From a virus: a stretch of 64,000 nucleotides of DNA. Where the stretch lies: positions 48,685-112,684 of IMG/VR virus record IMGVR_UViG_3300036766_000644, one strand, 5' to 3'. Shown piece by piece: positions 3,003-54,765 of the stretch (its first letter is position 1; every line of letters starts with the position of its first letter). Position numbers and translations under genes: made by a program. The notes beneath the pieces are model-generated. The model was not told the origin of the DNA and made no database searches. It worked only from the letters and a program-made list of their open reading frames with translations.

Positions 3003-3452
3003 TCACTCATCCGACGCAACAGGCGCTGTCCGAGAAGAATCGTACGCCTTACCAACCGCCTGCCCAACCGGCGCCAAAAGCATTCCGCCGCCAATCTGTC
3101 CTGCCATTCCGAGAGGGCCTCCTAGCAGAGATCCTGCGGAGCGGCCAAGCAAATCCCCGACGAGCTCTCCACCACCGGTATCAGGATTAGCGCGGGATTG
3201 AAGAAAAGAACCCATGATGGGCCAGGCCAACGCCGCGGCTATTGCACCGGGGCTCCGAGGGAGCGTCTTGGTGATGAGCCCCTTGCTGGGGTGGAAAAGC
3301 TGCCCTTTTTGAAACTGCTTCAGCGCTTCACGCGGCTGTCCGAGCCCTTGGCGCTGTACCTCTTCGAGGTAGTCGTCCCAGCCGCCAGCGCACTTCACAC
3401 CGAAGGAATGCAGAGCCGCACGGACACCTGCGGATTGCGCCAGGGGTAGCAT
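3003..3452 (-). CDS. hypothetical protein, Gly-rich C-terminus (149 aa)
   Basis: ORF whose ATG overlaps the stop of the upstream beta' C-half gene (TGATG). Confidence 0.55.
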   Translation of the reverse strand: MLPLAQSAGVRAALHSFGVKCAGGWDDYLEEVQRQGLGQPREALKQFQKGQLFHPSKGLITKTLPRSPGAIAAALAWPIMGSFLQSRANPDTGGGELVGDLLGRSAGSLLGGPLGMAGQIGGGMLLAPVGQAVGKAYDSSRTAPVASDE

Positions 3453-6286: not shown

Positions 6287-6928
6287 TCAAACGCCCGCTT
6301 GAGGAGTGGTTCCACCGGCGCCTCCTTCGCAGAACATCATCCGGCGTAGATCGTCTGCGTGCTGTTGGTCAGTGAGCGCCATCTGCTCGAGCATCACTTT
6401 GATGGAGAGGTTCTCCCCCGCCATGAGCGATAGGTTACGCAGCTCTTGGATGATCTGCTTCTCAGCCTGAAGCAGGACCATGAAAATCTGGTGGAGGTCG
6501 TTGATGTCCGGGATGGTGCTCACCTTAGGCGTGGGCTCACCACCTAGAGCCGTGATCTTCATCGTGAGGTGGTAGGCGTCTTCACGCTCTTCCCCTGCGT
6601 GCTCCTTGAAGTGGTCGTAGATGACGTCTCGGAAGTGAGCCCGGATCCGGTCACCGTAGTTGATGTACATCATCATCGTGGTGTACTTGAGCTTGAGCAG
6701 CTTCAGGCACTGCGCCACGATCTTTTCCTGAGGGACGGCGAACAGGCCTTCCTCGGGGGAGACGGCCAAGGGATGAACACCCTCAGATGCGGTGGGCTGG
6801 GGGATGGGAACTTCAGCTCCGGCGGCGTCAGACATCTGCGCGTCAGGGGATTGTACTTGCTCCGTAGGAACCTCAATGGCTCCGTCTGACGCGATCTTGT
6901 AGCGCTGCGTGTATACCTTGGTCGTCAC
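6287..6928 (-). CDS. hypothetical protein, possibly ferritin-like four-helix bundle (213 aa)
   Basis: ORF overlapping the beta-beta' stop by 4 nt. Periodic E/H/Q residues (…EHAGEEREDAYH…EKQIIQELRN…LEQMALTDQQHADDLRRM) resemble ferritin or rubrerythrin-like metal ligands. This is a weak call. Confidence 0.55.
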   Translation of the reverse strand: MTTKVYTQRYKIASDGAIEVPTEQVQSPDAQMSDAAGAEVPIPQPTASEGVHPLAVSPEEGLFAVPQEKIVAQCLKLLKLKYTTMMMYINYGDRIRAHFRDVIYDHFKEHAGEEREDAYHLTMKITALGGEPTPKVSTIPDINDLHQIFMVLLQAEKQIIQELRNLSLMAGENLSIKVMLEQMALTDQQHADDLRRMMFCEGGAGGTTPQAGV

Positions 6929-17493: not shown

Positions 17494-17924
17494 GACTGAT
17501 CTTGGAGAAGGAAGAAATCGTAGCCATCCTGGGGAAGCACTTCGACACGGAGCTTGACCCGACGAAAGTCATCATCCGCACGGACCCGTTTGAGATCGAA
17601 GTTTGCGGCCTCCCCTTGGGGTCTGGGGATGCCCCGCCACCGAAGAAAGAGGACAACGTCGTCGCGATGCCCCAGGTTTCGCGAAGAACTCCGGTCGCAG
17701 AGACGCAGCTCGTTCAGCGAGCTGACGAAGACGCAACAACGGAAGACCCCGAGCCCGGAAACGACGGGATGGGTGGAGACGCCGCGGCCATCCACCCTGC
17801 TGCGGTGCTGGCAGCATCGAAGGCGCTGGAGGCGCAGTTGGACCGGGAGAACCCCAAGCTGGCACGCCGGTCCGGGAGGTGGTCGGAAATAGCACCAACA
17901 AGCTCAAAGGATGAGATCGAATGA
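17490..17924 (+). CDS. hypothetical acidic protein (144 aa)
   Basis: ORF with ATGA overlaps at both ends. Confidence 0.55.
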   Translation: MRLILEKEEIVAILGKHFDTELDPTKVIIRTDPFEIEVCGLPLGSGDAPPPKKEDNVVAMPQVSRRTPVAETQLVQRADEDATTEDPEPGNDGMGGDAAAIHPAAVLAASKALEAQLDRENPKLARRSGRWSEIAPTSSKDEIE

Positions 17925-18823
17925 CCAAAGGAAATGTCCTCGAACATACCCAGGTGGTGAACGTGAAAGAATCAAGAACCGACGCGCTGCTCCGCCAACT
18001 GAAGGTGGAGGCGGGCTTCCTCGATCCGAAACTGCCGAAGGGTTTCTTTTCGAATTCGCAGTACAACAGCTGGCTCATCTGCGGACGAGCGTACGAGTTC
18101 AAGTACGTGCAGCAGATCTCCACGCCTGACTACGCCTCGACGAGCCGGGGTAACGCGGTGCACGCAGGGGCTGAGCACATGCTCAACGCCAAGATGGCGG
18201 GCAAGCCCCTGAACATCGACGAGGGGCGCGAAGTCGTCAGTCAGACCTTCGACGCCAAGGCGAAGGGCGTCATCGACTGGGGCGAAGAGGACCCCGTGAA
18301 GGTGAAGAACCTGGCGATGGATCTTTTCAAGGCGTACACCACGTACGCACTACCGAAGATCAACCCAGTCGCCATCGAGAAGGGATTCGCCAAGAAGGTC
18401 GGAGACGTTCCGATGATTGGGTGGATCGACCTCATCGACAAACAGCCCGCCATCGCCGTTCCTGGGATGACCGTGGCCCAGCTGGCAGAAGCACCGAGCA
18501 AGCTGGTGGTCGCCGACCTGAAGACCGGTAAGGCGAAGTGGAGCGAAAAGGAGGTGGCGCTGGACCCGCAGCTAACCCTCTACTCCTTCGTAGAAGGCGT
18601 TCCCGACGTTCGCATCGACCAGCTCATCGCGCACAAGAAGGCTCCGACCTTCATCCAAGCGCCCAGCACGCGTACACCCCGAGACGCCGCGATCCTCACA
18701 GACCACATCAATGAGGTTGCGGAGTACGTGAAGAAGGGTGTATTCCCGAAGACCCCGATCGACAACTGGTCCTGCAACAAGGACCACTGCTCGTTCTTTC
18801 ACCTGTGTCGCGGTAAGCAGTAA
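17921..18823 (+). CDS. Cas4/RecB-like PD-(D/E)XK nuclease with C-terminal Cys cluster (300 aa)
   Basis: GWIDLID…VVADLKTGK forms the D…D/ExK core. C-terminal WSCNKDHCSFFHLC looks like Fe-S/Zn ligands, as in Cas4/AddB. Confidence 0.75.
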   Translation: MTKGNVLEHTQVVNVKESRTDALLRQLKVEAGFLDPKLPKGFFSNSQYNSWLICGRAYEFKYVQQISTPDYASTSRGNAVHAGAEHMLNAKMAGKPLNIDEGREVVSQTFDAKAKGVIDWGEEDPVKVKNLAMDLFKAYTTYALPKINPVAIEKGFAKKVGDVPMIGWIDLIDKQPAIAVPGMTVAQLAEAPSKLVVADLKTGKAKWSEKEVALDPQLTLYSFVEGVPDVRIDQLIAHKKAPTFIQAPSTRTPRDAAILTDHINEVAEYVKKGVFPKTPIDNWSCNKDHCSFFHLCRGKQ

Positions 18824-19390: not shown

Positions 19391-19625
19391 TAAAGACACA
19401 GCGCGCGCTCAACGAAATTTAGCGGCGCAGCAGCACCTCATCTACAAGCTCAAAGCGATCCGTGCGCTCTGGATAACCGCGCACAACACCCCGCAGGCTA
19501 TTGAGAAGATGGAACGAGAGTTTCTCTTCCTGGTGGGGGAGATCGTTGAAGGCACCCCGGTAGAAAAGTTGACGATGAGCAACATCAACCGCGACGCGTT
19601 CATCCGTGAGTTCAACGACGGGTAG
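19368..19625 (+). CDS. hypothetical protein (~85 aa; start uncertain)
   Basis: ORF overlapping the previous gene. The track begins it at GTG 19341. Confidence 0.35.
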   Translation: MPTRSPVSKDTARAQRNLAAQQHLIYKLKAIRALWITAHNTPQAIEKMEREFLFLVGEIVEGTPVEKLTMSNINRDAFIREFNDG

Positions 19626-19668
19626 CGCGCTGTACGCAGTAAACCAAACCCTCACCTGGAGGAGCCCT

Positions 19669-20646
19669 ATGGCTACCGCCGAAGCACCCGTGTCACCTGA
19701 AGCCGCTCCCGCTGCACCCGTCATCCCCGACGCACCCGTGAAGTCTTCCAAGCGGACGCCGGGGCGCTACATCGAGCTCTCCATCAAGGACATCGTCACC
19801 AAGGCTGGGGACAACGTTCGCACCGGAGAACTGCCGGACATCGAGAAGCTCGCAGCGAGCATCGCCGCTGAAGGAGTCATCGAACCGATCATCGTCACGG
19901 AGTCCACTGAAACCCCGGGCAAGTACACCGTCGTCGCAGGGCACCGGCGGCTCACGGCTGTTCGCAGCCTGGAGGACATGCTCACCATCCCCGCGCTCAT
20001 CATCGACGCCGACGCAGATCGTCGTCTCAAGCTGGCGCTCATGGAGAACATCCACAGGGAAGACATGTCCCCGTTGGACAAGGCCAAGGCGCTGTCGAAG
20101 CTCATGAAGAACACCAAGCTCGAGCAGCAAGAGGTAGCGCAGGCTATCGGCGTTGCTCCGGGCTACGTGTCGCAGTACCTCGCACTGCTGGAGCTCCCGG
20201 AGTCAGCGCTCAACGCACTGCGTGATGGGGAAATCTCGTTCACGCACGCACGCACGCTCTGCCGCCTGGGGACGAACGTCAAGGCAATCGATGACCTGAT
20301 GTTCGAGATCTCGGATCTCACCGTCGCAGCGCTCGACGCCAAGGTCTCGCACATCCTGTCGCAGACGCGAAAGGCTGCTGCGGAGGCGGAGGACGCCGCT
20401 GAACCGGAAGCCGACGCCGACGGAACGAAGCCGAAGAAGGCAAAGAAGGCGAAGGCGCCCCCATCCGAGAAGGAGATCGTCTACTATTCGGAGGCGGAAT
20501 TCCGTCCGATGAAGAAGGAGGACATGCGCGACCTGATGGTGACGTGGAAGCGCAAGGAGGTCAACGCCGACACGGAGGCGAAGCAGCTGGAGTACAAGAA
20601 CATTCTCAAGGGCATCACGCTCGCGGCGAACCTCCGCTTCAAGTGA
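19669..20646 (+). CDS. ParB/Spo0J-like protein with ParB N-terminal nuclease-like domain and HTH (325 aa)
   Basis: EPIIVT…YTVVAGHRRLTA is the ParB GxRR box. LEQQEVAQAIGVAPGYVSQYLALL looks like an HTH. GGAGG lies 6 nt before ATG 19669. Confidence 0.75.
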   Translation: MATAEAPVSPEAAPAAPVIPDAPVKSSKRTPGRYIELSIKDIVTKAGDNVRTGELPDIEKLAASIAAEGVIEPIIVTESTETPGKYTVVAGHRRLTAVRSLEDMLTIPALIIDADADRRLKLALMENIHREDMSPLDKAKALSKLMKNTKLEQQEVAQAIGVAPGYVSQYLALLELPESALNALRDGEISFTHARTLCRLGTNVKAIDDLMFEISDLTVAALDAKVSHILSQTRKAAAEAEDAAEPEADADGTKPKKAKKAKAPPSEKEIVYYSEAEFRPMKKEDMRDLMVTWKRKEVNADTEAKQLEYKNILKGITLAANLRFK

Positions 20647-20786
20647 ACCCTCTCGTACTCAAAGTCATCGGCGTCCTGGCGGCGTACCGAAAGTGGTATG
20701 CCGCCGGGATGACGGATAAAGAGATCTCCCAGAAGATCCGCGAGACGTACCCGGCACAAGCTCGGCCGTTCCGCCCTACTCGGTAA
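20643..20786 (+). CDS. hypothetical small protein (47 aa)
   Basis: GTGA overlap with the parB-like stop. Low confidence. Confidence 0.3.
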   Translation: MNPLVLKVIGVLAAYRKWYAAGMTDKEISQKIRETYPAQARPFRPTR

Positions 20787-21609
20787 AGACGTCGCGAGCG
20801 CCACCAACCTGGTTCGCAACCAAGTAGACTCGTAGCTGGGCCATCGTATCTTTTTTGATCTGGCGTACTCTCTCGGAGGACAAGTCAACTCGCTTTGAGA
20901 TTTGTCGGAGGTTCTTCGGTTCCTCCCGGGCTCCGAAGTACGCCAGGACGATGTACTTGTCTCGCTCTCGTAACGCCAAGCCGTCTAGCGCGGAACGGAG
21001 CATGTTGAACCCATAGGAATTTACGAGGTCGCGTTCGAGGGTGTTGTCGCCGTGCCCTGCGTCGTCGATGGCATCAACGACGTCAAGCGTAACGTGGGCG
21101 GCTTCCACCTCAGTACCCCCGCCATGCTTTCGTAGCGCTCGTAGGGCCTTCTGTTTATGCGCGGGGACACGAATGATGCCCTGGCTGTCGAGCTCTTCAA
21201 GAATCTTTTCACGGACCCACCAGGCGGCGTACGTCAAGAACTTGGTGTTTCTCGTCGTATCGAACCGGTCCGCGGCTACCAACAGACCGATGTTCCCCGC
21301 GGAAATGAGCGTCGTCAAGACGTCGCTCTCGAAGTTAACGCCTCGAGTACGGTACGCATATTCCTTGGCCACCTTCACCACGAAACGAAGCGCGCCGGAG
21401 ATGAGCCGGTCGCGTGCTTTGAAGTTTCGAGGAGCACTGCACTTGGCGCAGCGAACCAAAGAAGACCCTAAGGGGTAGGTGTTTCGACAGGACGAACAGG
21501 TTCGGTACGCCGCGACAAGAGCGGCCTCTTCGCTCTGTGAAACAAAGGAGTTACCTCGCATGTCCGCAAAATACGCCTCAATGACTCGGTCACCGTCGTC
21601 GTTGCTCAT
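20776..21609 (-). CDS. sigma-70 family sigma factor with N-terminal Cys4 zinc ribbon (277 aa)
   Basis: Region 2: LISGALRFVVKVAKEY…NIGLLVAADRFDTTRNTKFLTYAAWWVREKI (cf. LIEANLRLVVSIAKKY…[31 protein letters not shown]). Region 4 HTH: LRERDKYIVLAYFG…LRQISKRVDLSSERVRQI. N-terminal CSSC…CAKC. Confidence 0.85.
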   Translation of the reverse strand: MSNDDGDRVIEAYFADMRGNSFVSQSEEAALVAAYRTCSSCRNTYPLGSSLVRCAKCSAPRNFKARDRLISGALRFVVKVAKEYAYRTRGVNFESDVLTTLISAGNIGLLVAADRFDTTRNTKFLTYAAWWVREKILEELDSQGIIRVPAHKQKALRALRKHGGGTEVEAAHVTLDVVDAIDDAGHGDNTLERDLVNSYGFNMLRSALDGLALRERDKYIVLAYFGAREEPKNLRQISKRVDLSSERVRQIKKDTMAQLRVYLVANQVGGARDVFTE

Positions 21610-22942: not shown

Positions 22943-23731
22943 GTGGAACTTGTCATCCCTGAACACGTGAAACTAGGTGCGCCGTGGTCCTTCTCCAAGG
23001 CGGGGGTGATCGCAAAATGCTCGCTCCAGTACGACTACAAGTACGGAGCCCAGAAGCAACCGGAGGAGCCGCAAGCGTCATCCGCGGATAGCCGAATCGG
23101 CGTGGTGGTGCACAAGGCCCTCGAGTTCGCCTTGAGTGGGGTCAAAGTGAAAGACTCCTTCATGTTCGCGATCGACCAGGGTGAGCTCACCACGGACGAG
23201 GCGGAGAAGGTGATGAGCTTCTACGAGCAGGTACGCCGGTTCGTGGAGTACATCAACAAGTTCAAGGCGAAGCACGGTGTGCGCCCCCAGAACGTGCTCA
23301 TCGAGCATCGGATCGGGATGTCGCCGGAGTTCAAGAACGTCCACTTCTTCGAGAAGACGGGCCTGTTCCGCGGCGTGCTCGACTTCATGATGTTGACTGG
23401 GCACGGTGACGCCGTCGTCATCGACCACAAGTCGGGGAAACAGAAAGAGATGAAGCACTACGAGGACCAGTGCAAGGCGTACTGCGTTCTCGCGCTGGCT
23501 TGGCGCCCAGAGCTCAAGGGCGTGCAGACCGCCATCAACTTCGTACAGACGGACAAGCTGGAGTGGAACCCCAGAGTCACCGCGGAGACGATCCGCAACG
23601 AGTACTACCCGTGGTTGGTCAAGTTCCTGGCAGATTCGTGCACGGGGCTACTAGCGGATCCGGTACCACAAGAGGGTTGGTGGTGTGACTGGTGCGGGTA
23701 CAAGGGCCAGTGCCCTGCGAAGAAGAAGTAA
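22943..23731 (+). CDS. second Cas4-like PD-(D/E)XK nuclease with C-terminal Cys cluster (262 aa)
   Basis: GVLDFMML…VVIDHKSGK forms the nuclease core. C-terminal WWCDWCGYKGQC resembles Cas4/DUF2800. GTG start. Immediately precedes polA. Confidence 0.7.
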   Translation: MELVIPEHVKLGAPWSFSKAGVIAKCSLQYDYKYGAQKQPEEPQASSADSRIGVVVHKALEFALSGVKVKDSFMFAIDQGELTTDEAEKVMSFYEQVRRFVEYINKFKAKHGVRPQNVLIEHRIGMSPEFKNVHFFEKTGLFRGVLDFMMLTGHGDAVVIDHKSGKQKEMKHYEDQCKAYCVLALAWRPELKGVQTAINFVQTDKLEWNPRVTAETIRNEYYPWLVKFLADSCTGLLADPVPQEGWWCDWCGYKGQCPAKKK

Positions 23732-26662: not shown

Positions 26663-26948
26663 GCCGATTCAGGACGACGTCCTCGACGAGTGGCGCAACA
26701 CACTCGTGAAGGTCTTCACGGTGACCGGTGGTTGCTTGACGGGAGTCCTCATCAAGTATGACCACAAGTCACTGATCATCTCACCCAAAACCTGTGTGCA
26801 ACGAAAGCACATAGTCTCACTCTACCAGGATCGAAATGGCCCCAATCAAAAAGCTGCAGGACCTGCTGTTCGTGGACACGGAAACGACGGGGCTCGACTC
26901 GACGAAGCACGAGCTACTGGAAGTAGCAGCGATAAGAACAAGCCCTGA
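26607..26948 (+). CDS. Hfq/Sm-like protein candidate (113 aa) overlapping polA 3' end and dnaQ 5' end
   Basis: IQDDVLDEWRNTLVKVFTVTGGCLTGVLIKYDHKSLIISPK…RKHIVS aligns with Hfq Sm1 ([34 protein letters not shown]) and Sm2 (YKHAIS). AAGGAG lies 10 nt upstream of the ATG. Confidence 0.5.
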   Translation: MPPKPIPKRRSEPRLPKFKPIQDDVLDEWRNTLVKVFTVTGGCLTGVLIKYDHKSLIISPKTCVQRKHIVSLYQDRNGPNQKAAGPAVRGHGNDGARLDEARATGSSSDKNKP

Positions 26949-27420
26949 CGGGCGCACGGTCATTCAGACGTACGAGGCGAAACTGTTCCCGGAACACCTG
27001 GAAACGGCGGAGCCCAGGGCATTGGAGGTCAACAAGTACTCCGCTGCTGAATGGCCCCGCGACAAGTGCGCTCGACCCGAAGACGTAGTGGACGCCCTGC
27101 AGAAGATGTCAGGCAACACCGTGCTGGTGGGGCAGAACGTGTCGTTCGACGAGGGCTTTCTTTCGCCTCTGTTCACCCGCCTGGGGATGAAGCCACCCTG
27201 GGGCTACCACAAGATCGACACGGTCTCGCTGGCCTGGCCGCTGTACTTCAACAACGCCGAGCTCCCCGGGCTGAGCCTGGAGAAGCTGTGTAAGTTCCTC
27301 GGAGTAGAGTCGATGCCGACGCACCGGGCAGCCGCTGACGTTGAGGCGTGCCGTCAGGTGTACCTGAATCTGATGGAACGATGGGCGATCATTACCAACA
27401 ACCAGATCGCGCAGCCGTAA
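26836..27420 (+). CDS. DnaQ-like DEDDh 3'-5' exonuclease (194 aa)
   Basis: Exo I FVDTETTGLD. Exo II VGQNVSFDEGFL. Exo III HRAAADVEAC. Confidence 0.85.
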   Translation: MAPIKKLQDLLFVDTETTGLDSTKHELLEVAAIRTSPDGRTVIQTYEAKLFPEHLETAEPRALEVNKYSAAEWPRDKCARPEDVVDALQKMSGNTVLVGQNVSFDEGFLSPLFTRLGMKPPWGYHKIDTVSLAWPLYFNNAELPGLSLEKLCKFLGVESMPTHRAAADVEACRQVYLNLMERWAIITNNQIAQP

Positions 27421-28290
27421 GTTAGTTGGTCGCGAGATCTTGCATCGGAGAATATCCGACGCCTCTGTAGCAGAGGCCGTGTACTTCGGAGATTTTGAAG
27501 CCTAGCTTCTGCAGCAGCAGTAGGTCTGCCCGAGTACACCCAGATGTCTCATGAACTGTTCGGTTGCACGCACCACCAGGGTGCTGCCACATACGACACA
27601 GACAAAGAAGAATCGCGACAGTCACGCAGTAAAAGATCTTGCTCCGGTACCTTTCCGGCGCCTCCGTAGTGGAGGCACTACCCCCGGGTCTCCTCACAGC
27701 CTAGCTGTATCGAAGACCAGGAGGTCTTAGCGACGATCGTAGCCGCGGGTGTTGCCCGCAGCTCCTCGAGGGCCCCAGTCGCCGAGCTGCTCGAACTGAT
27801 TGAACAAAGAAGATCTTGCTGTAAACTTTCCTGCTCCGGTACCAGTCCGGCGTCTCCGTAGTGGAGACTTTTACACGGCGGTGTCTGCGCGAAGCCTAGC
27901 TTCGCTGGACACCCAGGGTCCAAGACATTACCGGATCCTCCCGCGGCGTCGAGCTCGAGTACCGTACCTCGGGTCTCCGGCGGCCGCTAGTACGATTGAA
28001 CAAAGAGGAAAGATCACGTAGTCCGTAAATTCTTGCACCGGTACCTACCCGGCGTCTCCGTAGTGGAGACATTGAGGCCGTGGGTGTATGAGAGCCTAGC
28101 TCTTGCACACCCAGGAGGTTTCTTACCGCGGCGCCAATGATGGCGTCGTCTCGAACTCCTTCGGCCCCTTGATGACCTGCAGCTCTTCGAGATGGAAAAC
28201 AAAGAAGAATTTACGCAGTACCGTAGTGGTGATTCGTTTTGTGTGCCTAGGCACCGTCAGCGTAGTGCTGACTAGATCTCTTAGCTGCCC
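27421..28290. repeat. tandem array of ~4.5 units of ~200 nt, candidate structured ncRNA genes. Units start near 27421 (truncated), 27602, 27803, 27999 and 28198.
   Basis: Each unit shares AACAAAGA(A/G)GA, AGATC, CTTGC.CCGGTACC, CCGGCG(C/T)CTCCGTAGTGGAG(G/A)C, GCCTAGC, CACCC(A/C)GG and TCGAACT. No ORF is consistent across units. Two hairpins show compensatory changes between units. Confidence 0.8.
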
Positions 28291-28295
28291 CGCGA

Positions 28296-28374
28296 GATAG
28301 TTCCCGGGGGGCGGAGGAACTATCATCCAAGGAGTCACCACGTGTGCGAGAAGTCCGGCCTGGAGAGGCCGGAC
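28296..28374 (+). promoter_or_regulatory. two perfect hairpins upstream of gene 28397 (GATAGTTCC…GGAACTATC and GTCCGGCC-tggaga-GGCCGGAC), flanked by duplicated AGGAGTCACCA(C/T)G sequences
   Basis: Inverted repeats read directly. The second AGGAGTCACC serves as the RBS of ATG 28397. Could be a terminator for the repeat array or a translational attenuator. Confidence 0.4.
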
Positions 28375-28396
28375 ACCCCGCCACTCAGGAGTCACC

Positions 28397-28582
28397 ATGA
28401 AGATCGTGTCATTCGTCGTACGTCTCCACTGCGAACACTGCGATGGGACGGGGAGGATTCCCGGAGGTCAACGCGAGTACGGGGAGATGGTGTCGTGCCT
28501 CTACTGTAAAGGGTACGGGACCGTCGCAGGGGATGTATCGTTCGAAGACTTCGCCAAGCTCATCCAAGGGATCGCCAAGTGA
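28397..28582 (+). CDS. zinc-ribbon small protein (61 aa; CEHCDG…CLYCKG)
   Basis: AGGAG lies 6 nt before the ATG. Two CxxC pairs. Confidence 0.55.
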   Translation: MKIVSFVVRLHCEHCDGTGRIPGGQREYGEMVSCLYCKGYGTVAGDVSFEDFAKLIQGIAK

Positions 28583-28800
28583 AGAAGCTGCTTCTACTGC
28601 TCGCGCTCTCGGCGTGCGACGCCATCGATAAGAAGCTGTCCGAGTCGTACGACGTCACCTGCTACTCAGCGGACACGATCATTTACCACGGGTACGCCGA
28701 AGGTCGAATCGCGCAAGACGGGCCAGTCTGGTATTTCAAGGAAGCGAAGACTGGAAAGTTCATCCGCGTCAGTGGTAACTGCCTCATCATCCGGGAGTAG
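28579..28800 (+). CDS. putative lipoprotein (73 aa) with signal peptide and lipobox LSAC
   Basis: MKKLLLLLALSAC. GTG start overlaps the previous stop (GTGA). Possible o-spanin or exclusion lipoprotein. Confidence 0.55.
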   Translation: MKKLLLLLALSACDAIDKKLSESYDVTCYSADTIIYHGYAEGRIAQDGPVWYFKEAKTGKFIRVSGNCLIIRE

Positions 28801-30414
28801 CTACGCGTAGAACTTGAGATCGTTCATCACGATCTTGTGGGCGAACCATCCGAAGAGCTGCGCGTGGAGGCAGTCGTCGGGGAGCTGGGGGCTGTGCCTC
28901 CATACCTTCTTGCCAGACGTCGTCACCTCCTCGTAGATGTTGAGGATGTCCTTGATGGCCTCGCGAGACTCTTCGCGTGGCGGGTACACGGCTGCGCCAC
29001 GCTTCAGGAACATGAGGTAGTTGTCGATGAGAGTCGTACGGTCAGCGAGATAGCGGTCCAGCCCGTTCCACTTGATGGGCTGAGCCAGAGCTCCGTACTG
29101 CACCATTGTCACCCGGTGAGCGCCCAGGCGGGCACGGAGGGTGGCGTTCGGTAGGGCGCCCTCACCAGCGTCTCCGATGACCATGGCGACGTTGTAGCTC
29201 AGGCAGATGCGGGCGATGTCTTCCACGTCCACAACGGCGTTGTTGCCAGGGTAGACGCGGTAGTAGAGCGTGCGGAGCTTCTGCGTGCTGGGGTGGAAGC
29301 CCCAGATCCACAGCACGGTGCGAGAGGTTCCGGTGGTCCCACCACCAGACCAGTCAACACCTGCAACCGTGACTGAACACCCATCCAGGTTCTTGTTCGG
29401 CGTCGGTGAGATTGCGTCGCCTGTGCATAGCGCCTCGAGCTCCTCCAGGGAGATGAGGCGACGCCCTACGGCGTCTGAGACACCGAGGACCTCGTTGCGG
29501 AATCTCGCAGACGAGAACATGTCGTGGTCGCGAAGGATGTCGTCCCAGCGTGCTTGAGCATCCGCTTGGGCGTTTGGCTTCTCCACGGTATTTTTTACGC
29601 AGGACGGGATGTTCAGGGGCATGATCAACTGCGGGATGTGGAACCCCTTCACGGAGTGCTTCCCCGTGTCTTTGTCCACCTTCTGCATGTCGATCCACTG
29701 CCCTGTACGGGGGTTCAGGACGTGGCCACAGTTGAGGCAGATGGGCCCGTGCTTCCCCAGCGACTTCTCGCTCGTGACGATGTTGTACTTGCTGCAGCCC
29801 TCACACTTCATCACCCACTCTGTCTGAGACGACTTGTCCCAGAGGTACTGGATGCTGGCCTCCATCGTCTTGGGCGTGCCCGCGTAGGTCTCGAAGCGGA
29901 ACTCGCTGTTCTTCATGCAGGAATTGATGACCGGGACAACTGAGTCGTACAACATGTCCTGAAACTCGTCGTAGCTCACCCGATCGGCGGAGAAGCCACG
30001 GGCGCGGTCTGCGTCGTCGCAGGCGTAGGTGAAGGCGTTCTCCGAGCCGTTGGTGTAGGATCGGTGCAGCACGCGGTCGGCGTGCTCAGGAGACTGGAAG
30101 TACTTTTTGATGATGGGCGAGTAGGAGAGCGTCTTCCCTACGCGAGTGTTAGAGAAGATCAGCGTTTGTTCTTTTGATGGAGATACGTAGTACTCCTTGA
30201 AGTGTGGCAGGGCCACGCTCTCAGAGATGATGAAGTTGGCCAGTGACGTAGACTTGGCCACCTGTCTCCCGCACATCAGGAGAGTGGACTTGTAGCGCCC
30301 GTTGTAGATGTTCCGGTACATCGGGTAGTCGTCGAGGCTGAACTTGGACCCATCCAGCCAGAGCAACCGCTCAGCGATGTCCGAGAGCTTCTTTGTTTTG
30401 ATCGTCTGTTCCAT
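28801..30414 (-). CDS. terL: terminase large subunit (537 aa)
   Basis: Walker A LMCGRQVAKST. Walker B VSYDEFQDM. C-terminal nuclease region VAGVDWSGGG…IGDAGEG. Confidence 0.9.
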   Translation of the reverse strand: MEQTIKTKKLSDIAERLLWLDGSKFSLDDYPMYRNIYNGRYKSTLLMCGRQVAKSTSLANFIISESVALPHFKEYYVSPSKEQTLIFSNTRVGKTLSYSPIIKKYFQSPEHADRVLHRSYTNGSENAFTYACDDADRARGFSADRVSYDEFQDMLYDSVVPVINSCMKNSEFRFETYAGTPKTMEASIQYLWDKSSQTEWVMKCEGCSKYNIVTSEKSLGKHGPICLNCGHVLNPRTGQWIDMQKVDKDTGKHSVKGFHIPQLIMPLNIPSCVKNTVEKPNAQADAQARWDDILRDHDMFSSARFRNEVLGVSDAVGRRLISLEELEALCTGDAISPTPNKNLDGCSVTVAGVDWSGGGTTGTSRTVLWIWGFHPSTQKLRTLYYRVYPGNNAVVDVEDIARICLSYNVAMVIGDAGEGALPNATLRARLGAHRVTMVQYGALAQPIKWNGLDRYLADRTTLIDNYLMFLKRGAAVYPPREESREAIKDILNIYEEVTTSGKKVWRHSPQLPDDCLHAQLFGWFAHKIVMNDLKFYA

Positions 30415-30869
30415 CAGGAGCTCAAAGATAATTGAAGGTTGTGCAGGCTTAACTCAATGGCCCTAGTGAGTAGAGCCTTTAAAATACCAGGGTCTTCGTG
30501 TGCGTGGCCAAAAGCGCGGTTACAACCACCGTGAGCTAAGCCGCGCACAACATTTGTTTTATGGCAGTGATCGACAACGGGGAGCTCAAACATAGGACGT
30601 TCACACAACCAGCACCGCCCCGCCTGAGCGATCAACATCGAGTGCCAGCGCGCCGTAGTTATCCCATAAAGACGCTTAAGATTTCTTTCCAGCGCCTTGG
30701 CGGGATCTTGAGCGTAATAAGAAGATTTGCGCCCCCGTATGCGTTCAGGGTGCCGCCTACGATACGCAGCATTGCGCCGCCTGTTGCCAGCAACATCCGC
30801 TTTCCTGCAAAGGCGGCAAGGGCCTGACGGCATGCGGTCCACAGATCCACACTTTTTGCAGGGATTCAT
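30414..30869 (-). CDS. HNH endonuclease (endonuclease VII-like) immediately upstream of terL (~152 aa)
   Basis: CKKCG…CRLC plus CWLCERP…VDHCHKTNVVRGLAHGGCN. Start taken at MNPCKKC, because the longer track ORF would overlap the divergent AAA+ gene start. Confidence 0.8.
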   Translation of the reverse strand: MNPCKKCGSVDRMPSGPCRLCRKADVAGNRRRNAAYRRRHPERIRGRKSSYYAQDPAKALERNLKRLYGITTARWHSMLIAQAGRCWLCERPMFELPVVDHCHKTNVVRGLAHGGCNRAFGHAHEDPGILKALLTRAIELSLHNLQLSLSS

Positions 30870-30894
30870 TTCACTCACCACCACAGAGGTTAGC

Positions 30895-32172
30895 ATGAGT
30901 AACGTCGGGCAGGACAAGGTAATCGCAGGTGAAGCGTACTACGACCGCTACAGCATCCCGCGGATGACTCTGCACGAAGCAATGTGGCAGATCGACCTCA
31001 GCATCGAGCAGAAGCAGACTCGAGGAGTCTGGTGCCTCATCTCGGAAGCGGGCGAGGGGAAGTCGCAAGGCATTCACCAGCTTGCCCGCAAGCACAACCT
31101 ACGGGTCGTGGACATCCGGACGTCGCAGTTCTCCATGATCGGAGCCGGTGTTCCGCAGCGAGCTGATGAGTCTGGGCACTTCAAAATCGCCATTCCATCA
31201 GACTACCCGAAAAAGGGAGAGAGGTGCATCCTCATCTTCGACGAAATCAACCAGGGGCAGCAGCACGCCATCGCGCTGTTCTTCAAGTTCCTCGAGGACC
31301 GTGGGATCTACGACTACGTCCTCCCGGATGACTGCGTCATCGTGGCGCTGATGAACCCCAGCACTGCGGGGTACAACGTCACGAAGATCGAGACCAACTC
31401 CGCGTTCAACCGCCGCCTGATGAAGGCGTACGTGTACAACACGTTCTCGGACTGGAAGAAGCACGCGGTGACGAACGACTTCCACTACACCGATGGGATG
31501 GAGAAGCCCTGCCACCCGATGGTCGTGCGCCTGCTCACGGCGTCTCCGTCGATGCTGTACACGGCGAAGGACCGCGACGGGAACAAGCAGTTCGCGTGCC
31601 CTGCGACCTGGCAGACCGTCTCGCTGTCGCTCTACAACCTCGAGGCCTCGAAGACTGACCTCACCTCAGAGCGGGCGGAGTGGCGAATCTCAGCGTCCAT
31701 CAACACGGTGAACGCGAAGACCCTCGTGGAGTTCATCAAGAACAACGAGATCATCATCTCCCCGGAGGAGGTGCTCTACAAGTACAAGGCGAAGAGCAAG
31801 CTCCGCGAGCGCACCCAGGACCTGCAGAAGGAGCCTGGCGGGGAGTACACCCGTCTCGTGGAAGAGGTCGCCCAGTTCATGTTCCGCGAGCGTCCCGACC
31901 CGGAGCTCATCGCACCGCAGCTGGTGCAGTTCTGGCACGACATGCCTGTCGAGCAGGCGCAGCCGTTCTACCAGATGCTCGACTCGGCCTGCACGGCGCA
32001 CGGGGGCATCAGCGAGCCGAGGAACCTCCAGTACATGCAGGCGCTGACCGTGGCTTGCCGCGGCTACCCTCTGTGGAAGGAGATCAACGACCGCATCAAC
32101 CGCATCCACGACGAGCAGGAGAAGAAGGTTCACGGCCGCGGTAAGGGCAGTGATCCGATGGAAGTTGCGTGA
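30895..32172 (+). CDS. MoxR-like AAA+ ATPase (~425 aa)
   Basis: Walker A GEAGEGKS. Walker B CILIFDEINQ. Sensor region ALMNPS. Start at ATG 30895. The track's 30727 start overlaps the opposite-strand HNH gene. Confidence 0.85.
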   Translation: MSNVGQDKVIAGEAYYDRYSIPRMTLHEAMWQIDLSIEQKQTRGVWCLISEAGEGKSQGIHQLARKHNLRVVDIRTSQFSMIGAGVPQRADESGHFKIAIPSDYPKKGERCILIFDEINQGQQHAIALFFKFLEDRGIYDYVLPDDCVIVALMNPSTAGYNVTKIETNSAFNRRLMKAYVYNTFSDWKKHAVTNDFHYTDGMEKPCHPMVVRLLTASPSMLYTAKDRDGNKQFACPATWQTVSLSLYNLEASKTDLTSERAEWRISASINTVNAKTLVEFIKNNEIIISPEEVLYKYKAKSKLRERTQDLQKEPGGEYTRLVEEVAQFMFRERPDPELIAPQLVQFWHDMPVEQAQPFYQMLDSACTAHGGISEPRNLQYMQALTVACRGYPLWKEINDRINRIHDEQEKKVHGRGKGSDPMEVA

Positions 32173-34145: not shown

Positions 34146-35771
34146 ATGGCAACTACCACTACCACAGGCGACGAGAACGAACTGCAGAAGTCGCTGGTTT
34201 ACCTCGTGAGTCGCAGAGGTGCCTCGAATTACTGGTGCACCGTCGTGAACGGGATGGACAAGCGTTTCACCAATGGCGACGGGACTCTGTCGGTCCAGCT
34301 GGCGCCGAACTTCAGGTACCTGCTCACCGTCCACCTGCCCTTCTTCGAGAAGTGCTCCCCGACGATGAAGCGGCTCGCGTTGGTGCACGAGGCAGCGCAT
34401 GTCTGCCTGAACCACATCCCCCGGCTGTTCAAGATGGTGGCGAACTGCACGGATCCCTTCGTACGCAAGGCCATCCTGGCGACGTTCAACTTCGCCGCGG
34501 ACTTCGCAGCGAATGACGCCATCGTACGACTCGAGCCGGGATTCGAGGAGACGCACCGCAAGATGGGCACGGCGACCGGCGAGTTCCCGTTCCTGCTGCC
34601 CGAGGAGTTCGGGTTCCCGAAGGGGCTCTCGATGGAGGAGTACTTCACGCTGATGCTGAAGGACCTCCCCAAGATCAAGCAACAGATCCAGCGCATGCTC
34701 CAGGATTTGATGGAGCAGATGGAAGGCGGGGATACGCCCGGAGAAGGAGACGGCGAGGGTGAAGGTGACGGTGAAGGTGGAGGCTCCGGGGGTGGAGACG
34801 TTCTGCGTTCTCCGTTCGGGCGTGGGCGCGGCTCTGGCCTGCCGAACAACATCCCGGGGTTGCCTGAGTCTCTGATCGAGCACGCCATCAACGAGCCTGA
34901 GACCTTCGACATGCTGCAGAAGGCCTTCGACAAGATGACGGGTAAGGGCCACCGCCAGTGGAACGAGAAGGCGGAGCAGATGACCCCCGAGGAGGCAGTC
35001 TCAGCGGGCAACAAGATGAAGAAGCACGCCCAGGCGCTGGCGCGTTCAGCGAATGAGCGCATCAACCGTGACCGCGGCTTCATGGCGGGGTCGGTTCAGA
35101 GGATCATCGACGCACTGCTCGAGCCGGAGCAGATTCCCTGGGACTCGTTCCTGCGGGACATCATCCAGGGCGCCATCTCGGCCCGGGTGCAGGAGGAGAT
35201 GGGCGCGCCAAACCTGGCGCTCATCAACGAGGACTACATGGAGCCCTGGCCCGGCCAGATGCTGGAGTTCGGGTTCAACATCACCTGGATGACGGACACC
35301 TCGGGATCGATGGGGGACGCGGAGTACGTACGTGCCTGTGCGTGCATCAACTCGCTGCTCGCTCAGAACAAGGCGGTGTTCGTGACGTACTGCGAGTGCG
35401 ACGCCGCGATGCAGAAGGAGGTCCGCGTCACCAACGTGGAGCCGCCTTCTGATGAGTACGTGAAGGAGCTCCTGAACCGCCGTGGGCACGGAGGCACCGT
35501 CTACACGCCGTTCTTTAAGCGTGTCGCCGGGGCTGACGTTCCCTCGGATTGGGTGGCCGGTGCGCCCAAGCTCGATGAGAAGCACCCGAAGCCGGACCTC
35601 ATGGTCGTCTGTACCGATGGTGGTGTGGGGCTGATGGGTGAGTGCTTCCCGCAGTTCCGCCCTGACTGCCCCATCATCTGGCTGGTGATGCCGGGGTGTT
35701 CACCCTGCGAGGGGATGGACAATGTGTCACCGAATCGCGTGATCGAGATGTTCTCAATGAAGGAGGAATAA
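34146..35771 (+). CDS. vWA-domain protein with N-terminal HExxH metallopeptidase-like (DUF2201-like) domain (541 aa)
   Basis: HEAAHVCLNH in the N-terminal domain. MIDAS motif DTSGSMGD followed by …VVCTDGG. Typical partner of MoxR-type ATPases. Confidence 0.85.
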   Translation: MATTTTTGDENELQKSLVYLVSRRGASNYWCTVVNGMDKRFTNGDGTLSVQLAPNFRYLLTVHLPFFEKCSPTMKRLALVHEAAHVCLNHIPRLFKMVANCTDPFVRKAILATFNFAADFAANDAIVRLEPGFEETHRKMGTATGEFPFLLPEEFGFPKGLSMEEYFTLMLKDLPKIKQQIQRMLQDLMEQMEGGDTPGEGDGEGEGDGEGGGSGGGDVLRSPFGRGRGSGLPNNIPGLPESLIEHAINEPETFDMLQKAFDKMTGKGHRQWNEKAEQMTPEEAVSAGNKMKKHAQALARSANERINRDRGFMAGSVQRIIDALLEPEQIPWDSFLRDIIQGAISARVQEEMGAPNLALINEDYMEPWPGQMLEFGFNITWMTDTSGSMGDAEYVRACACINSLLAQNKAVFVTYCECDAAMQKEVRVTNVEPPSDEYVKELLNRRGHGGTVYTPFFKRVAGADVPSDWVAGAPKLDEKHPKPDLMVVCTDGGVGLMGECFPQFRPDCPIIWLVMPGCSPCEGMDNVSPNRVIEMFSMKEE

Positions 35772-48732: not shown

Positions 48733-48938
48733 AGGAGAAGAGATTTGTCGTGGATGACTCGTCGTCTCTCGGGACCGTAGTGGTCTCGGTGCGGCATCCG
48801 CCGGGCAGTAAGTGGGAGAACTGTGTGGAGCTCTACGTCGAACGAAAGGGGTGTGGTTGTCCGGAAGGACAGATCATGCTGAGCGCTGTCGACTGGGCGA
48901 AGCTGGTGCGGGCCATGGGGAAGGCGGTTCGGCTGTGA
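48729..48938 (+). CDS. hypothetical small protein (69 aa)
   Basis: ATGA-coupled. Confidence 0.45.
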   Translation: MKEKRFVVDDSSSLGTVVVSVRHPPGSKWENCVELYVERKGCGCPEGQIMLSAVDWAKLVRAMGKAVRL

Positions 48939-54437: not shown

Positions 54438-54439
54438 AG

Positions 54440-54765
54440 GCTGAACCCCCGGCTGAACCCAAGGACGGTTTTCATGGGTACAGCCGTAAGGCGATGAACC
54501 GATTCATCTTTTAGTCAAAAAAAGGCCAAACTGAACCACTGAACCCACTGGACCCTAAAGTTGAAGACTTGGCTGTGATGTACATAACGGCGAGTCACTC
54601 ATAATATGCAAGCAAGGCTCATGCCAAAAAGAGGTCATTTAGCTGAGGTGTCAAACAGAATCTCCTATTTACTATTCAGGATGGTTCATGGGTTCAGTTT
54701 GGGGTCGGATTTAAAAGATTTCAAGTAGTTATGGCTGAACCCATCTTGCGAAGTGCTGAACCCTC
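54440..54765. repeat. iteron cluster (CTGAACCC in both orientations, at least 6 copies) flanking an AT-rich stretch. Candidate replication origin or regulatory region.
   Basis: CTGAACCC at 54441, 54453, 54539, 54735 and 54756. GGGTTCAG at 54690. CTGAACCA and CTGGACCC variants. AT-rich 54560-54730. Located right after the primase/helicase gene. Confidence 0.55.

What the first reader, a model, noticed from the sequence alone, without database searches (positions are those of the whole stretch)
27421..28290. Tandem array of ~200-nt units with two covarying hairpins each: candidate family of structured non-coding RNAs
About 4.5 repeats fill the only sizeable non-coding gap of the window. One unit starts truncated at the dnaQ stop. 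The others start at 27602, 27803, 27999 and 28198. Conserved blocks recur in order. Hairpin 1 changes between units with compensation: GCCTCTG-tag-CAGAGGC, GCCTCC-gtagt-GGAGGC, and GTCTCC-gtagt-GGAGAC twice. Hairpin 2 keeps a CTA loop while the stem covaries: GAAGC/GCTTC, ACAGC/GCTGT, GCGAAGC/GCTTCGC, AGAGC/GCTCT. Compensatory substitutions in stems argue for selection on RNA or ssDNA structure rather than protein binding. No ORF is consistent across the units.
Basis: seen in the sequence. Interest (0 to 1): 0.8.

Follow-up and report, generated by a model that had tools for sequence, protein, structure and literature searches.

The report
Tandem structured RNA array in phage
The roughly 1 kb gap after a phage DNA-replication gene holds five tandem copies of a three-hairpin module that evolves by compensatory changes like a folded RNA, matches no catalogued RNA family, recurs at the same place in a small group of uncultured ~170-195 kb phages, and has no known function.

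Summary
Window 27421-28396 holds five diverged direct repeats of about 195-202 nt. Four are regular units and the fifth is a terminal variant.

Each unit has a structured core of about 100 nt with three hairpins, not two. The core is followed by an unstructured, fast-evolving spacer of about 90 nt and the purine-rich boundary motif AACAAAGAAGA.

Covariation is strong. Across 22 units from 8 phage contigs, 99.7% of cells are paired. There are 43 double-change cells against 11.4±2.6 in shuffles (0/500).

The array sits at one syntenic position in every relative found: DnaQ-like exonuclease, then the array, then a convergent large terminase gene. Copy number ranges from 3 to 11. A second, diverged array lies elsewhere in the two relatives whose loci cover that site.

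Several signals in the wider family point to RNA read from the + strand:
- Seven G·U and no A·C exceptions in 50 copies of the key hairpin.
- A loop-closing pair that alternates between G·U and G-C.
- cUUCGg tetraloops.
- A + strand terminator at one array's end.

There is no Rfam match, no coding signature and no sigma-70 promoter or terminator per unit. A better replication-origin candidate lies at 54438-54913.

The function is unknown. My best guess is a multicopy RNA that displays a conserved triloop hairpin as a multivalent protein-binding platform. A retron-type reverse transcriptase with no RNA gene beside it lies 9 kb downstream in every relative where that region could be examined. 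It is a speculative partner.

The parts
26836..27420 (+). DnaQ-like DEDDh 3'-5' exonuclease gene. Its stop codon abuts unit 1. It is the conserved upstream neighbour of the array in all relatives.
   Evidence: Pfam RNase_T 1.3e-21. PHROG 192. NCBIfam DEDD/epsilon families. Synteny.
27421..27601 (+). Unit 1, the most diverged and lacking the full boundary motif. P1 is 27445-27449/27455-27459 (TCGGA/TCCGA). P2 is 27461-27477 (GCCTCTG-TAG-CAGAGGC). P3 is 27479-27539, with tip GAAGC-CTA-GCTTC at 27497-27509. A spacer follows.
   Evidence: CM hit 27425-27550, 77 bits.
27602..27802 (+). Unit 2. Boundary motif ACAAAGAAGA is at 27602-27611. P1 is 27644-27647/27655-27658. P2 is 27660-27676 (GCCTCC-GTAGT-GGAGGC). 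P3 is about 27680-27725, with AGCCTAGCT at 27698-27706. The spacer is 27726-27802.
   Evidence: CM hit 106 bits.
27803..27998 (+). Unit 3. Motif AACAAAGAAGA is at 27803-27813. P1 is 27836-27839/27847-27850. P2 is 27852-27868 (GTCTCC-GTAGT-GGAGAC). P3 is about 27877-27920, with AGCCTAGCT at 27893-27901. A spacer follows.
   Evidence: The differences between the window and L159 cluster in this spacer (27922-27943).
27999..28197 (+). Unit 4. Motif AACAAAGAGGA is at 27999-28009. P1 is 28038-28041/28049-28052. P2 is 28054-28070. P3 is 28081-28113, with AGCCTAGCT at 28093-28101, followed by GUUUCUU. A spacer follows.
   Evidence: (inverted repeat I7).
28198..28340 (+). Terminal variant unit.
- Motif 28198-28208.
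- 5' strand of a long-range helix, GGTGATTC, at 28228-28235.
- P1t 28243-28254 (GTGCC-TA-GGCAC).
- P2t 28256-28272 (GTCAGC-GTAGT-GCTGAC).
- Hairpin T1 28296-28324 (GATAGTTCC/GGAACTATC).
- 3' strand of the long-range helix within AGGAGTCACC at 28330-28339.
   Evidence: T1 covaries among the window, L159, L001, L161, L163 and L162. The long-range helix is compensated in L172 (GGGATTC/GGAATCCC).
28341..28396 (+). Trailing element. Hairpin T2 is GTCCGGCCT-GGAG-AGGCCGGAC (28353-28374). It lies between two identical AGGAGTCACC motifs. The second motif (28387-28396) is the ribosome-binding site of the next gene.
   Evidence: (D14, I5). The T2 stem differs in every relative while the peptide that would be encoded is not conserved.
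28397..28582 (+). 61-aa zinc-ribbon gene (CxxCxGxG type) directly served by the last AGGAGTCACC motif. It is present in the window, L159 and L001. In L161, L163 and L162 a P3-like hairpin module takes its place.
   Evidence: Weak Pfam Anti-TRAP and DnaJ_CXXCXGXG hits, below cut-off. Conserved peptide in L001. Absent.
28801..30414 (-). Large terminase gene, convergent on the array. It is the conserved downstream neighbour in all relatives.
   Evidence: PHROG 675 9e-45 and Pfam GpA_ATPase. Synteny.

Best explanation
**What it is.** The region is a multicopy locus of structured non-coding RNA read from the + strand.

**Each regular unit contains:**
- A conserved purine-rich boundary motif, (A)ACAAAGARGA.
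- A small hairpin, P1.
- P2, a 6-7 bp hairpin of free stem sequence. Its tip is conserved: a U-A-R triloop closed by G·U or G-C.
- P3, a long stable hairpin.
- An unconstrained spacer of about 90 nt.

The last unit is a variant. A long-range helix (GGUGAUUC with GGAGUCACC) closes a multi-hairpin junction and buries a Shine-Dalgarno-like sequence just upstream of the next small gene.

**How it most likely works (inferred).**
1. Transcription of the replication operon (PolA, then the DnaQ-like exonuclease) runs into the array. No terminator separates them.
2. The transcript either stays as one long RNA or is cut at the A-rich boundaries into pieces of about 100-200 nt.
3. The repeated, loop-conserved P2 hairpins act as a multivalent binding platform, either a sponge or an assembly scaffold. 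The bound factor, from the phage or the host, recognises the hairpin tip rather than the stem sequence.
4. Copy number (3 to 11 among relatives) would set the dose.

**Shown and inferred.** The repeat anatomy, the pairing constraint, the conservation, the strand signature and the absence of coding or known-family signals are shown. Transcription, processing, the binding partner and the biological role are inferred.
For: **Repeats and hairpins.**

**Covariation.**
- 19 units, 99.6% paired, 33 double-change cells vs 8.1±2.1.
- 22 units, 99.7% paired, 43 vs 11.4±2.6, 0/500 shuffles.
- outer P3 arms, 0/5000 permutations.
- a compensatory change between near-identical genomes. There are no differences at all across 27421-27921, and the rest cluster in spacers.

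**Core against spacer.** The core is structured (z about -2.3 to -3.0). The spacers are not (z about -0.3).

**Conserved locus.** The array lies between the exonuclease gene and the terminase gene in L001, L161, L163, L162 and L172. The short contigs L165, L164 and L160 show it directly after the exonuclease gene. The same synteny holds in the distant relatives L254, L255 and L256, with 11, 4 and at least 6 units. A second array lies between co-directional genes in L013 and L015.

**+ strand RNA.**
- Among 50 P2 hairpins, the only non-Watson-Crick pairs are 7 G·U. There is no A·C.
- The loop-closing pair is G·U (GUAGU) or G-C (GUAGC, GUAAC, GCAAC).
- L254 has cUUCGg tetraloops.
- The U·G in the terminal long-range helix becomes U-A in L172, with a compensated indel.
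- L256's array ends in a hairpin followed by AUUUCUUUU on the + strand.
- The flanking + strand genes and a working ribosome-binding site fit this orientation.

**Negatives.**
- No Rfam match at gathering or permissive thresholds.
- No tRNA.
- Absent from 185,579 bacterial and archaeal species genomes for the P1-P2 pattern; only 2 chance hits inside coding sequence.
- Absent from deposited phage genomes.
Against: **No expression data.** None exist.

**Thermodynamics does not favour the + strand.**
- Whole-array folding z-scores are more negative on the - strand in 6 of 6 arrays and in the second arrays.
- In P3, G·T and A·C appositions are equal, 27 each.
- In the window's own clade, P1 and P2 show almost no G·U: one-sided changes number 0 of 266 cells and 1 of 308. 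That is unusual for RNA and would also suit a DNA hairpin.

**Context in three relatives.** The array abuts the terminase stop with no + strand gene after it. A - strand read-through transcript is therefore equally possible there.

**No partner or processing evidence.**
- No binding protein is identified.
- No sigma-70 promoter or terminator per unit.
- The boundary motif occurs nowhere else in the window. Its role as a processing site, a phage promoter or a protein site is therefore open.
Confidence: 0.55

Rival explanations
1. These are purely cis-acting mRNA elements, not a trans-acting RNA. The hairpin array would be the 3' trailer of the replication operon. It would block 3'-5' exonucleases and insulate two convergent operons from read-through. 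The terminal module would be a 5' leader that gates translation of the downstream small gene by burying its Shine-Dalgarno sequence.
For: - The array always lies between convergent genes.
- No terminator separates the exonuclease stop from unit 1.
- The terminal long-range helix pairs GGUGAUUC with a Shine-Dalgarno-like GGAGUCACC. An identical copy of that motif is the ribosome-binding site of the zinc-ribbon gene.
- L256's array ends with a terminator-like hairpin.
- The second array sits directly upstream of a DUF3846 gene.
Against: - Exonuclease blocks and insulators need only stable hairpins. They do not explain a P2 tip and an 11-nt boundary motif conserved in phages whose reverse transcriptases are only about 50% identical.
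- They do not explain 3-11 regularly built units.
- Three relatives keep the Shine-Dalgarno-like motifs but have no gene to regulate.
Confidence: 0.2
2. The array RNAs are the missing partner RNAs of the phage's retron-type reverse transcriptase at 37160-38356. The enzyme would recognise the small hairpins (P1, P2) as retron enzymes recognise msr stem-loops. It would copy part of each unit, for example the long hairpin, into multicopy single-stranded DNA. The phage might use that DNA as a decoy or regulator.
For: - The enzyme is retron-like in three libraries: Pfam RVT_1, PADLOC RT_XIII 5e-44 and NCBIfam retron families.
- Genes are packed tightly around it, with no non-coding room for its own RNA. 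No template/variable repeat pair is nearby.
- Both the enzyme and the array are present in all seven lineages where both loci could be examined. They lie on the same strand, about 7-10 kb apart.
- The unit layout, two small hairpins followed by one long hairpin, resembles msr-msd. The terminal unit has an enclosing helix followed by a G.
Against: - Retron RNAs lie next to their enzyme gene. Here the gap is 9 kb, with the terminase gene on the other strand in between.
- Regular units have no enclosing a1/a2 inverted repeat: native -14.6 vs permuted -14.1±0.5 kcal/mol, 460/3000.
- The co-occurrence may be plain shared ancestry within one phage clade.
- No Rfam retron msr match.
Confidence: 0.12
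3. This is a DNA-level element. The inverted repeats would fold as single-stranded or cruciform DNA and act in packaging (next to the terminase and endonuclease VII genes), in replication or in recombination.
For: - The position is next to the terminase and endonuclease VII genes.
- P1 and P2 stems in the window's clade are almost exclusively Watson-Crick.
- Both strands fold about equally well.
- The unit length is regular at about 190-200 bp.
Against: - Double-stranded-DNA binding proteins conserve the arms, not the loops. Here the arms vary and the tips are conserved.
- P3 is too interrupted for easy cruciform extrusion.
- Strand-asymmetric signals fit RNA: 7 G·U vs 0 A·C, the G·U/G-C closing pair, and cUUCGg loops.
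- A much better origin candidate, with CTGAACC(C) iterons and an AT-rich stretch, lies at 54438-54913 next to the primase-helicase gene.
- Unit length ranges from 90 to 280 nt in distant relatives.
Confidence: 0.05
4. The array is a series of small protein-coding genes on either strand. The repeats would be paralogous micro-ORFs.
For: - Staggered ORFs of 62-91 aa exist on the - strand across the units.
- Some spacer stretches look codon-like when read by eye.
Against: - No ORF in the gap has the window's coding signature of GC by codon position.
- Reading frames are not kept between orthologous units, and the predicted peptides are not conserved (read).
- Substitutions are compensatory in stems rather than synonymous.
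- Differences between the window and L159 fall at every third base in the exonuclease gene but not in the array.
Confidence: 0.02

Closest known systems
Tandem small-RNA gene arrays in bacteria, such as NsiR1 of Anabaena (12 tandem copies) and LhrC1-4 of Listeria (from my own knowledge, not tested here)
   Same: Several head-to-tail copies of a short structured RNA unit in one non-coding locus. The copies diverge but keep their hairpins.
   Different: In those arrays each copy has its own promoter and intrinsic terminator, and they are chromosomal. Here no sigma-70 promoter or terminator is found per unit. The units carry three hairpins plus a long unconstrained spacer. The locus is phage-borne and flanked by replication and packaging genes.
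Protein-sponge RNAs of the CsrB/RsmZ type (from my own knowledge)
   Same: One RNA displays many hairpins whose loop motif, not their stem sequence, is conserved. Copy number varies among relatives.
   Different: The defining GGA loop motif is absent. The conserved tip here is a U-A-R triloop closed by G·U or G-C. The bound protein is unknown, and the host is unknown.
Retron msr-msd non-coding RNA (Mestre et al. 2020, PMC7736814)
   Same: Small hairpins are followed by a long hairpin. A retron-type reverse transcriptase is encoded on the same strand of the same genome. The terminal unit has an enclosing helix.
   Different: The array is not adjacent to the enzyme gene (9 kb away). Regular units have no enclosing a1/a2 repeat. 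There are 3-11 tandem copies instead of one. No DNA product has been shown.
Type III toxin-antitoxin RNA arrays (ToxI) and phage pseudo-ToxI repeats (from my own knowledge)
   Same: A tandem array of a structured RNA unit that is cut into unit-length pieces at an A-rich site. Phages can carry such arrays.
   Different: ToxI-type units are 34-45 nt pseudoknots followed by a toxin gene. Here the units are 183-202 nt (90-280 nt in distant relatives), hairpin-based, and have no toxin-like neighbour.
CRISPR arrays and RNA anti-CRISPR repeat mimics (from my own knowledge)
   Same: A conserved hairpin alternates with variable sequence. P2 (6 bp plus a GUAGU loop) looks like some Cas6-type repeat hairpins.
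   Different: The stem sequence differs from copy to copy (at least 14 variants). The 'spacers' are 90-200 nt, diverge by mutation, and match nothing in the window beyond 13 nt. No cas gene was found among the neighbours scanned.

Membership tests
Any Rfam 15 family | A covariance-model match at or near the family's gathering score | tested here: not met
   - 0 matches at gathering over the whole window.
- 0 matches at E<=10 over 27350-28450.
- Only sub-threshold chance hits on the 2 kb array of L254.
Retron msr-msd RNA | The RNA gene lies immediately next to the reverse transcriptase gene on the same strand | tested here: not met
   The array ends at 28396 and the enzyme gene starts at 37160. 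At least eight genes lie between them, including the terminase gene on the other strand. The strand is the same.
Retron msr-msd RNA | Inverted repeats a1/a2 enclose the unit, with the priming G next to a1 | tested here: not met
   In regular units the 5' flank pairs with its own 3' region no better than with permuted ones (-14.6 vs -14.1±0.5 kcal/mol; 460/3000). Only the terminal unit has an enclosing 8-bp helix followed by a G.
Retron msr-msd RNA | A retron-clade reverse transcriptase in the same element | tested here: met
   PADLOC RT_XIII 5e-44. NCBIfam retron St85, Ec67 and TIR families, below curated cut-offs. Pfam RVT_1. Syntenic in all relatives.
Retron msr-msd RNA | Production of multicopy single-stranded DNA branched to the RNA | not testable with these tools
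   This needs nucleic-acid extraction from infected or co-expressing cells.
Type III toxin-antitoxin RNA array (ToxI-like) | Tandem repeats of about 34-45 nt directly upstream of an endoribonuclease toxin gene | tested here: not met
   The period is 192-202 nt. The downstream genes are a zinc-ribbon protein and the terminase. PADLOC gave no hit for the neighbours.
CRISPR array or RNA anti-CRISPR | Near-identical repeats of 23-50 nt separated by spacers of 25-50 nt | tested here: not met
   The stems differ between copies while the loops are kept. The spacing is 90-280 nt. The spacers find no target of more than 13 nt in the window.
Iteron-type origin or centromere (double-stranded DNA protein sites) | Repeats whose arm sequence is conserved because a protein reads it | tested here: not met
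   The arms covary freely and the tips are conserved. An iteron-bearing, AT-rich candidate origin lies elsewhere, at 54438-54913.
Tandem independent small-RNA genes | Each unit has its own promoter and terminator | tested here: inconclusive
   - No sigma-70-type promoter. Terminator-like sites are at chance level: 2 found vs 2.1 expected.
- The phage encodes its own RNA polymerase subunits and a sigma factor. Their promoters are unknown.
- The conserved AT-rich boundary motif could be such a promoter, but it occurs nowhere else in the window.
Protein-coding repeats | A conserved reading frame with the genome's codon-position GC signature | tested here: not met
   See for GC by codon position, for the substitution pattern, and for frames and peptides that are not conserved between orthologous units.

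The most novel reading that the evidence does not exclude
The arrays are a natural multi-copy retron-like system carried by a lytic phage. The retron-type reverse transcriptase has no RNA gene of its own beside it. It would recognise the conserved P2 hairpin of each unit and copy part of each unit into a set of different small single-stranded DNAs. The fast-evolving spacers would supply variable sequence. The products could serve as decoys or guides against host defences or competing phages. This would be the first natural retron array, the first retron with a detached RNA locus, and a counter-defence use of an enzyme family known from host defence.
Probability: 0.1. Interest if true: 0.9.

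Novelty: new member of a known kind. Interest (0 to 1): 0.6.

Why it matters
Phage genomes are annotated almost entirely by their proteins, so a non-coding locus of 0.5-2 kb is easily passed over. This one is kept at a single position across a whole clade of large phages that encode their own RNA polymerase subunits. It evolves under clear pairing constraint. It therefore probably does something important in infection.

If the RNA is a multivalent decoy or scaffold, identifying its partner would reveal a new phage-host or phage-internal control point. If it works with the phage's retron-type reverse transcriptase, it would change how retron-like enzymes are viewed.

On the practical side, the covariance model and the simple hairpin signature (a stem, then G-[U/C]A[A/G]-[U/C], then a stem, about 45-55 nt after AACAAAGARGA) allow the family to be annotated in metagenomes.

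Tried and rejected
- **Tandem Repeats Finder** does not see the array because the copies are too diverged.
- **The P1 pattern** CCGGTACCNNNCCGGCG was too unspecific in viral contigs.
- **The P1-P2 pattern in bacterial genomes** gave two hits, both inside coding sequence and without the hairpin.
- **Replication origin** was rejected. The arms vary, and a better iteron locus lies at 54438-54913.
- **Spacers as guides** found no support. No match longer than 13 nt exists elsewhere in the window.
- **Boundary motif as a general phage promoter.** It occurs only in the array within this window. It resembles the AACA element of AR9 late promoters (PMC7598289) but does not fit the spacing. This is left open.
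- **An intergenic k-mer search** for a phage promoter motif gave only noise.
- **An enclosing a1/a2-like helix** in regular units was not significant.
- **Loop-loop kissing** between the P2 UAG and the P3 CUA is only 3 bp and shows no covariation. L160 and L001 unit 2 change one loop without the other.
- **Strand assignment by folding energy** is ambiguous and leans the other way.
- **A diversity-generating retroelement** was rejected because no repeat pair lies near the reverse transcriptase.
- **The 541-aa 'HNH' protein as an RNA-guided nuclease** was rejected. It is a DUF2201 VWA/metallopeptidase-like protein.
- **The P2-like hairpin at 48769-48789** lies inside a plausible ORF and is taken as chance.
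- **The weak Anti-TRAP hit** of the zinc-ribbon protein, together with the UAG loops, recalls TRAP and HutP triplet binding. The hit reflects only the CxxCxGxG zinc motif and is below cut-off.
- **Literature searches** found no description of such arrays.
Full report
**What is there.**

Window 27421-28396 is the largest non-coding gap of the window (976 nt). It lies between the stop codon of a DnaQ-like DEDDh exonuclease gene (26836-27420) and a 61-aa zinc-ribbon gene (28397-28582). The large terminase gene follows on the opposite strand (28801-30414).

The repeat finder recovers direct repeats with start-to-start spacing of 199, 192, 202 and 202 nt. Tandem Repeats Finder misses them because the copies are only about 58% identical.

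The conserved blocks are far beyond chance. AGCCTAGCT occurs 4 times against 0.28 expected. The hairpin-1 pattern occurs 6 times against 0.91 expected. The motif AACAAAGARGA is exact only at the unit starts.

**Anatomy.**

Each regular unit starts with (A)ACAAAGARGA. About 45-55 nt later comes a structured core of about 100 nt with three hairpins:
- P1 has 4-5 bp and a 7-nt loop. It reads CCGG-uaccuan-CCGG, or TCGGA/TCCGA in unit 1.
- P2 has 6-7 bp and the loop GUAGU. Unit 1 has GCCTCTG-TAG-CAGAGGC.
- P3 is an interrupted hairpin of about 20 bp with the tip AGC-CUA-GCU.

The remaining ~90 nt of each unit is a spacer. It shows no excess folding on either strand (z about -0.3), while the core does (z -2.3 to -3.0).

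The fifth unit (28198-28340) is a variant:
- GGUGAUUC (28228-28235) can pair over about 100 nt with GGAGUCACC (28331-28339).
- That helix encloses P1t (GTGCC-TA-GGCAC), P2t (GTCAGC-GTAGT-GCTGAC) and an AT-rich hairpin T1 (GATAGTTCC/GGAACTATC).
- A further hairpin T2 (28353-28374) separates two identical AGGAGTCACC motifs. The second is the ribosome-binding site of the zinc-ribbon gene.

**It is not coding and not a known element.**

- No ORF in the gap has the window's GC-by-codon-position signature.
- Frames and peptides are not kept between orthologous units.
- Between the window and L159, which is 96.7% identical over the array region, the differences fall on third codon positions in the exonuclease gene but not in the array.
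- There is no tRNA.
- There is no Rfam match at gathering or permissive thresholds.
- There is no sigma-70 promoter, and terminator-like sites are at chance level.
- There is no match in 50,697 deposited phage genomes.
- For the P1-P2 pattern, 185,579 bacterial and archaeal species genomes gave only 2 chance hits inside genes.

**Relatives.**

Protein-anchored and pattern searches recovered the same arrangement (exonuclease gene, array, convergent terminase gene) in a small clade of uncultured phages of about 170-190 kb:
- L001 and L161, from contigs of 190 kb and 187 kb.
- L163 and L162.
- L165, L164 and L160, which are cut by contig ends, so only the exonuclease side is seen.
- L172, from a 168-kb contig whose exonuclease is 66% identical.
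- L159, a near-identical variant of the window.

Units fall into orthologous classes (first, second, third, terminal) across phages, so the array predates their divergence.

Two of these genomes carry a second, more diverged array about 66 kb away. It lies after an intrinsic terminator and a 75-aa ORF, and before a DUF3846 gene, all on one strand.

Searching with the phage's reverse transcriptase found three more distant phages whose enzyme is 49-52% identical. They have the same synteny and arrays of 11 (L254), 4 (L255) and at least 6 (L256) units, with periods of 90-280 nt. Two things survive this deep divergence. One is the boundary motif, (A)CAAAG(A/U)RGA(U/C)C. The other is P2: a stem of free sequence, a closing G paired with U or C, and a triloop of UAG, UAA or CAA. 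P3 becomes simply a stable hairpin, often with a cUUCGg tetraloop.

**Covariation.**

- On 19 units, the 14 pairs of P1, P2 and apical P3 are 99.6% paired. There are 33 double-change cells against 8.1±2.1 in shuffles (0/500). Sliding the partners by 1-3 columns drops pairing to 33-42%.
- With 22 units aligned to a covariance model, pairing is 99.7%. There are 43 double-change cells against 11.4±2.6, and 7 pairs carry compensatory changes.
- The outer arms of P3 cannot be aligned column by column. They pair better with their own partner than with permuted partners (-14.5 vs -11.4±0.6 kcal/mol; 0/5000).
- The window and L159 show no difference across 27421-27921. The array's differences cluster in the spacers of units 3 and 4 and in the terminal unit. 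One pair of differences (28300 G>A, 28320 C>T) is compensatory in T1.

**RNA or DNA, and which strand.**

Within the window's own clade the question is open:
- P1 and P2 are almost purely Watson-Crick.
- P3 has equal numbers of G·T and A·C appositions.
- The - strand folds slightly better.

The wider family settles it in favour of + strand RNA:
- Among 50 P2 hairpins, every single non-Watson-Crick pair is G·U on the + strand (7). None is A·C.
- The loop-closing pair alternates between G·U and G-C. On the other strand this would be A·C.
- L254 carries several cUUCGg tetraloops, which are an RNA-specific stability motif.
- The U·G of the terminal long-range helix is U-A in L172, with a compensated one-base deletion on each strand.
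- L256's array ends in a hairpin followed by AUUUCUUUU on the + strand, just before the terminase stop.
- Gene context agrees. The window and L001 have + strand genes on both sides, and the second arrays lie between co-directional genes.

A DNA-level role is further weakened by a much better origin candidate at 54438-54913. That gap has at least 8 CTGAACC(C) iterons in an AT-rich stretch directly after the primase-helicase gene.

**Function.**

Nothing in the sequence reveals it, so what follows is inference.

The design is many copies of a hairpin whose tip is conserved and whose stem is free. The copies are separated by unconstrained spacers, and copy number varies from 3 to 11. This is the design of a multivalent protein-binding RNA, acting as a sponge or a scaffold. 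I take that as the most likely mechanism.

Transcription would arrive by read-through from the replication operon. Cutting at the A-rich boundary motif is possible.

The terminal module additionally buries a Shine-Dalgarno-like sequence, which could gate the small downstream gene. A purely cis role as a 3' stabiliser or insulator is the main rival.

**The most novel reading.**

This reading involves the retron-type reverse transcriptase at 37160-38356.
- It has no non-coding room beside it and no template/variable repeat pair nearby.
- It co-occurs with the array in all seven lineages that could be examined.
- The array units superficially resemble msr-msd RNAs.
- Against it, regular units lack the defining enclosing repeat, the locus is 9 kb away, and the co-occurrence can be plain shared ancestry.

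**Verdict.**

The family is not in Rfam and was not found in the literature searched. I file it as a new member of a known kind, namely structured non-coding RNA in tandem copies. Its function is unknown and its context is interesting.

Noticed in passing
window 54438-54913: An AT-rich gap directly after the primase-helicase gene (52518-54437). It holds at least 8 copies of CTGAACC(C) in both orientations. This is a likely iteron-type replication origin.
   Followed up: partly
window 37160-38356 (+): A retron-type reverse transcriptase (PADLOC RT_XIII 5e-44, Pfam RVT_1) in a lytic-looking large phage. Genes are packed tightly around it. There is no adjacent non-coding RNA locus and no template/variable repeat pair. 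It is syntenic in all relatives.
   Followed up: partly
window 3452-5251 (-), 6925-11736 (-), 20776-21609 (-): Split multisubunit RNA polymerase beta/beta'-like genes. One is fused to a region that matches virion and minor-head proteins. A separate sigma-70 family factor (regions 2 and 4) is also present. The phage may therefore use both its own polymerase and a redirected host core.
   Followed up: no
window 28565-28798: The 73-aa ORF 28579-28800, between the zinc-ribbon gene and the terminase stop, is absent from L159, which is 96.7% identical over the array region. It is a recent 234-nt insertion or deletion.
   Followed up: no
L013 8255-8740; L015 2690-2200 (- strand): A second, diverged array of the same module family in the 187-kb and 190-kb relatives, about 66 kb from the first. 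It lies after an intrinsic terminator and a conserved 75-aa ORF, and just upstream of a DUF3846 gene. The homologous site is outside this window.
   Followed up: partly
L254 800-2765; L256 1-925; L255 2490-3080: Distant relatives carry arrays of 11, at least 6, and 4 units with shorter periods (90-280 nt). Their P2 loops are GUAAC or GCAAC, and they have cUUCGg tetraloops. L256's array ends in a + strand terminator-like hairpin followed by a U-tract.
   Followed up: partly
window 30727-32172 (+) and 34146-35771 (+): An ATPase (PHROG 1297) and a 541-aa protein that PHROGs calls an HNH endonuclease. Pfam matches the latter to DUF2201, a VWA-like plus metallopeptidase-like domain. The pair resembles MoxR-VWA modules.
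   Followed up: no
window 17921-18823 (+), 22943-23731 (+), 19606-20646 (+): Two separate PD-(D/E)XK nuclease genes and a ParB-like gene lie in the replication module upstream of the array.
   Followed up: no
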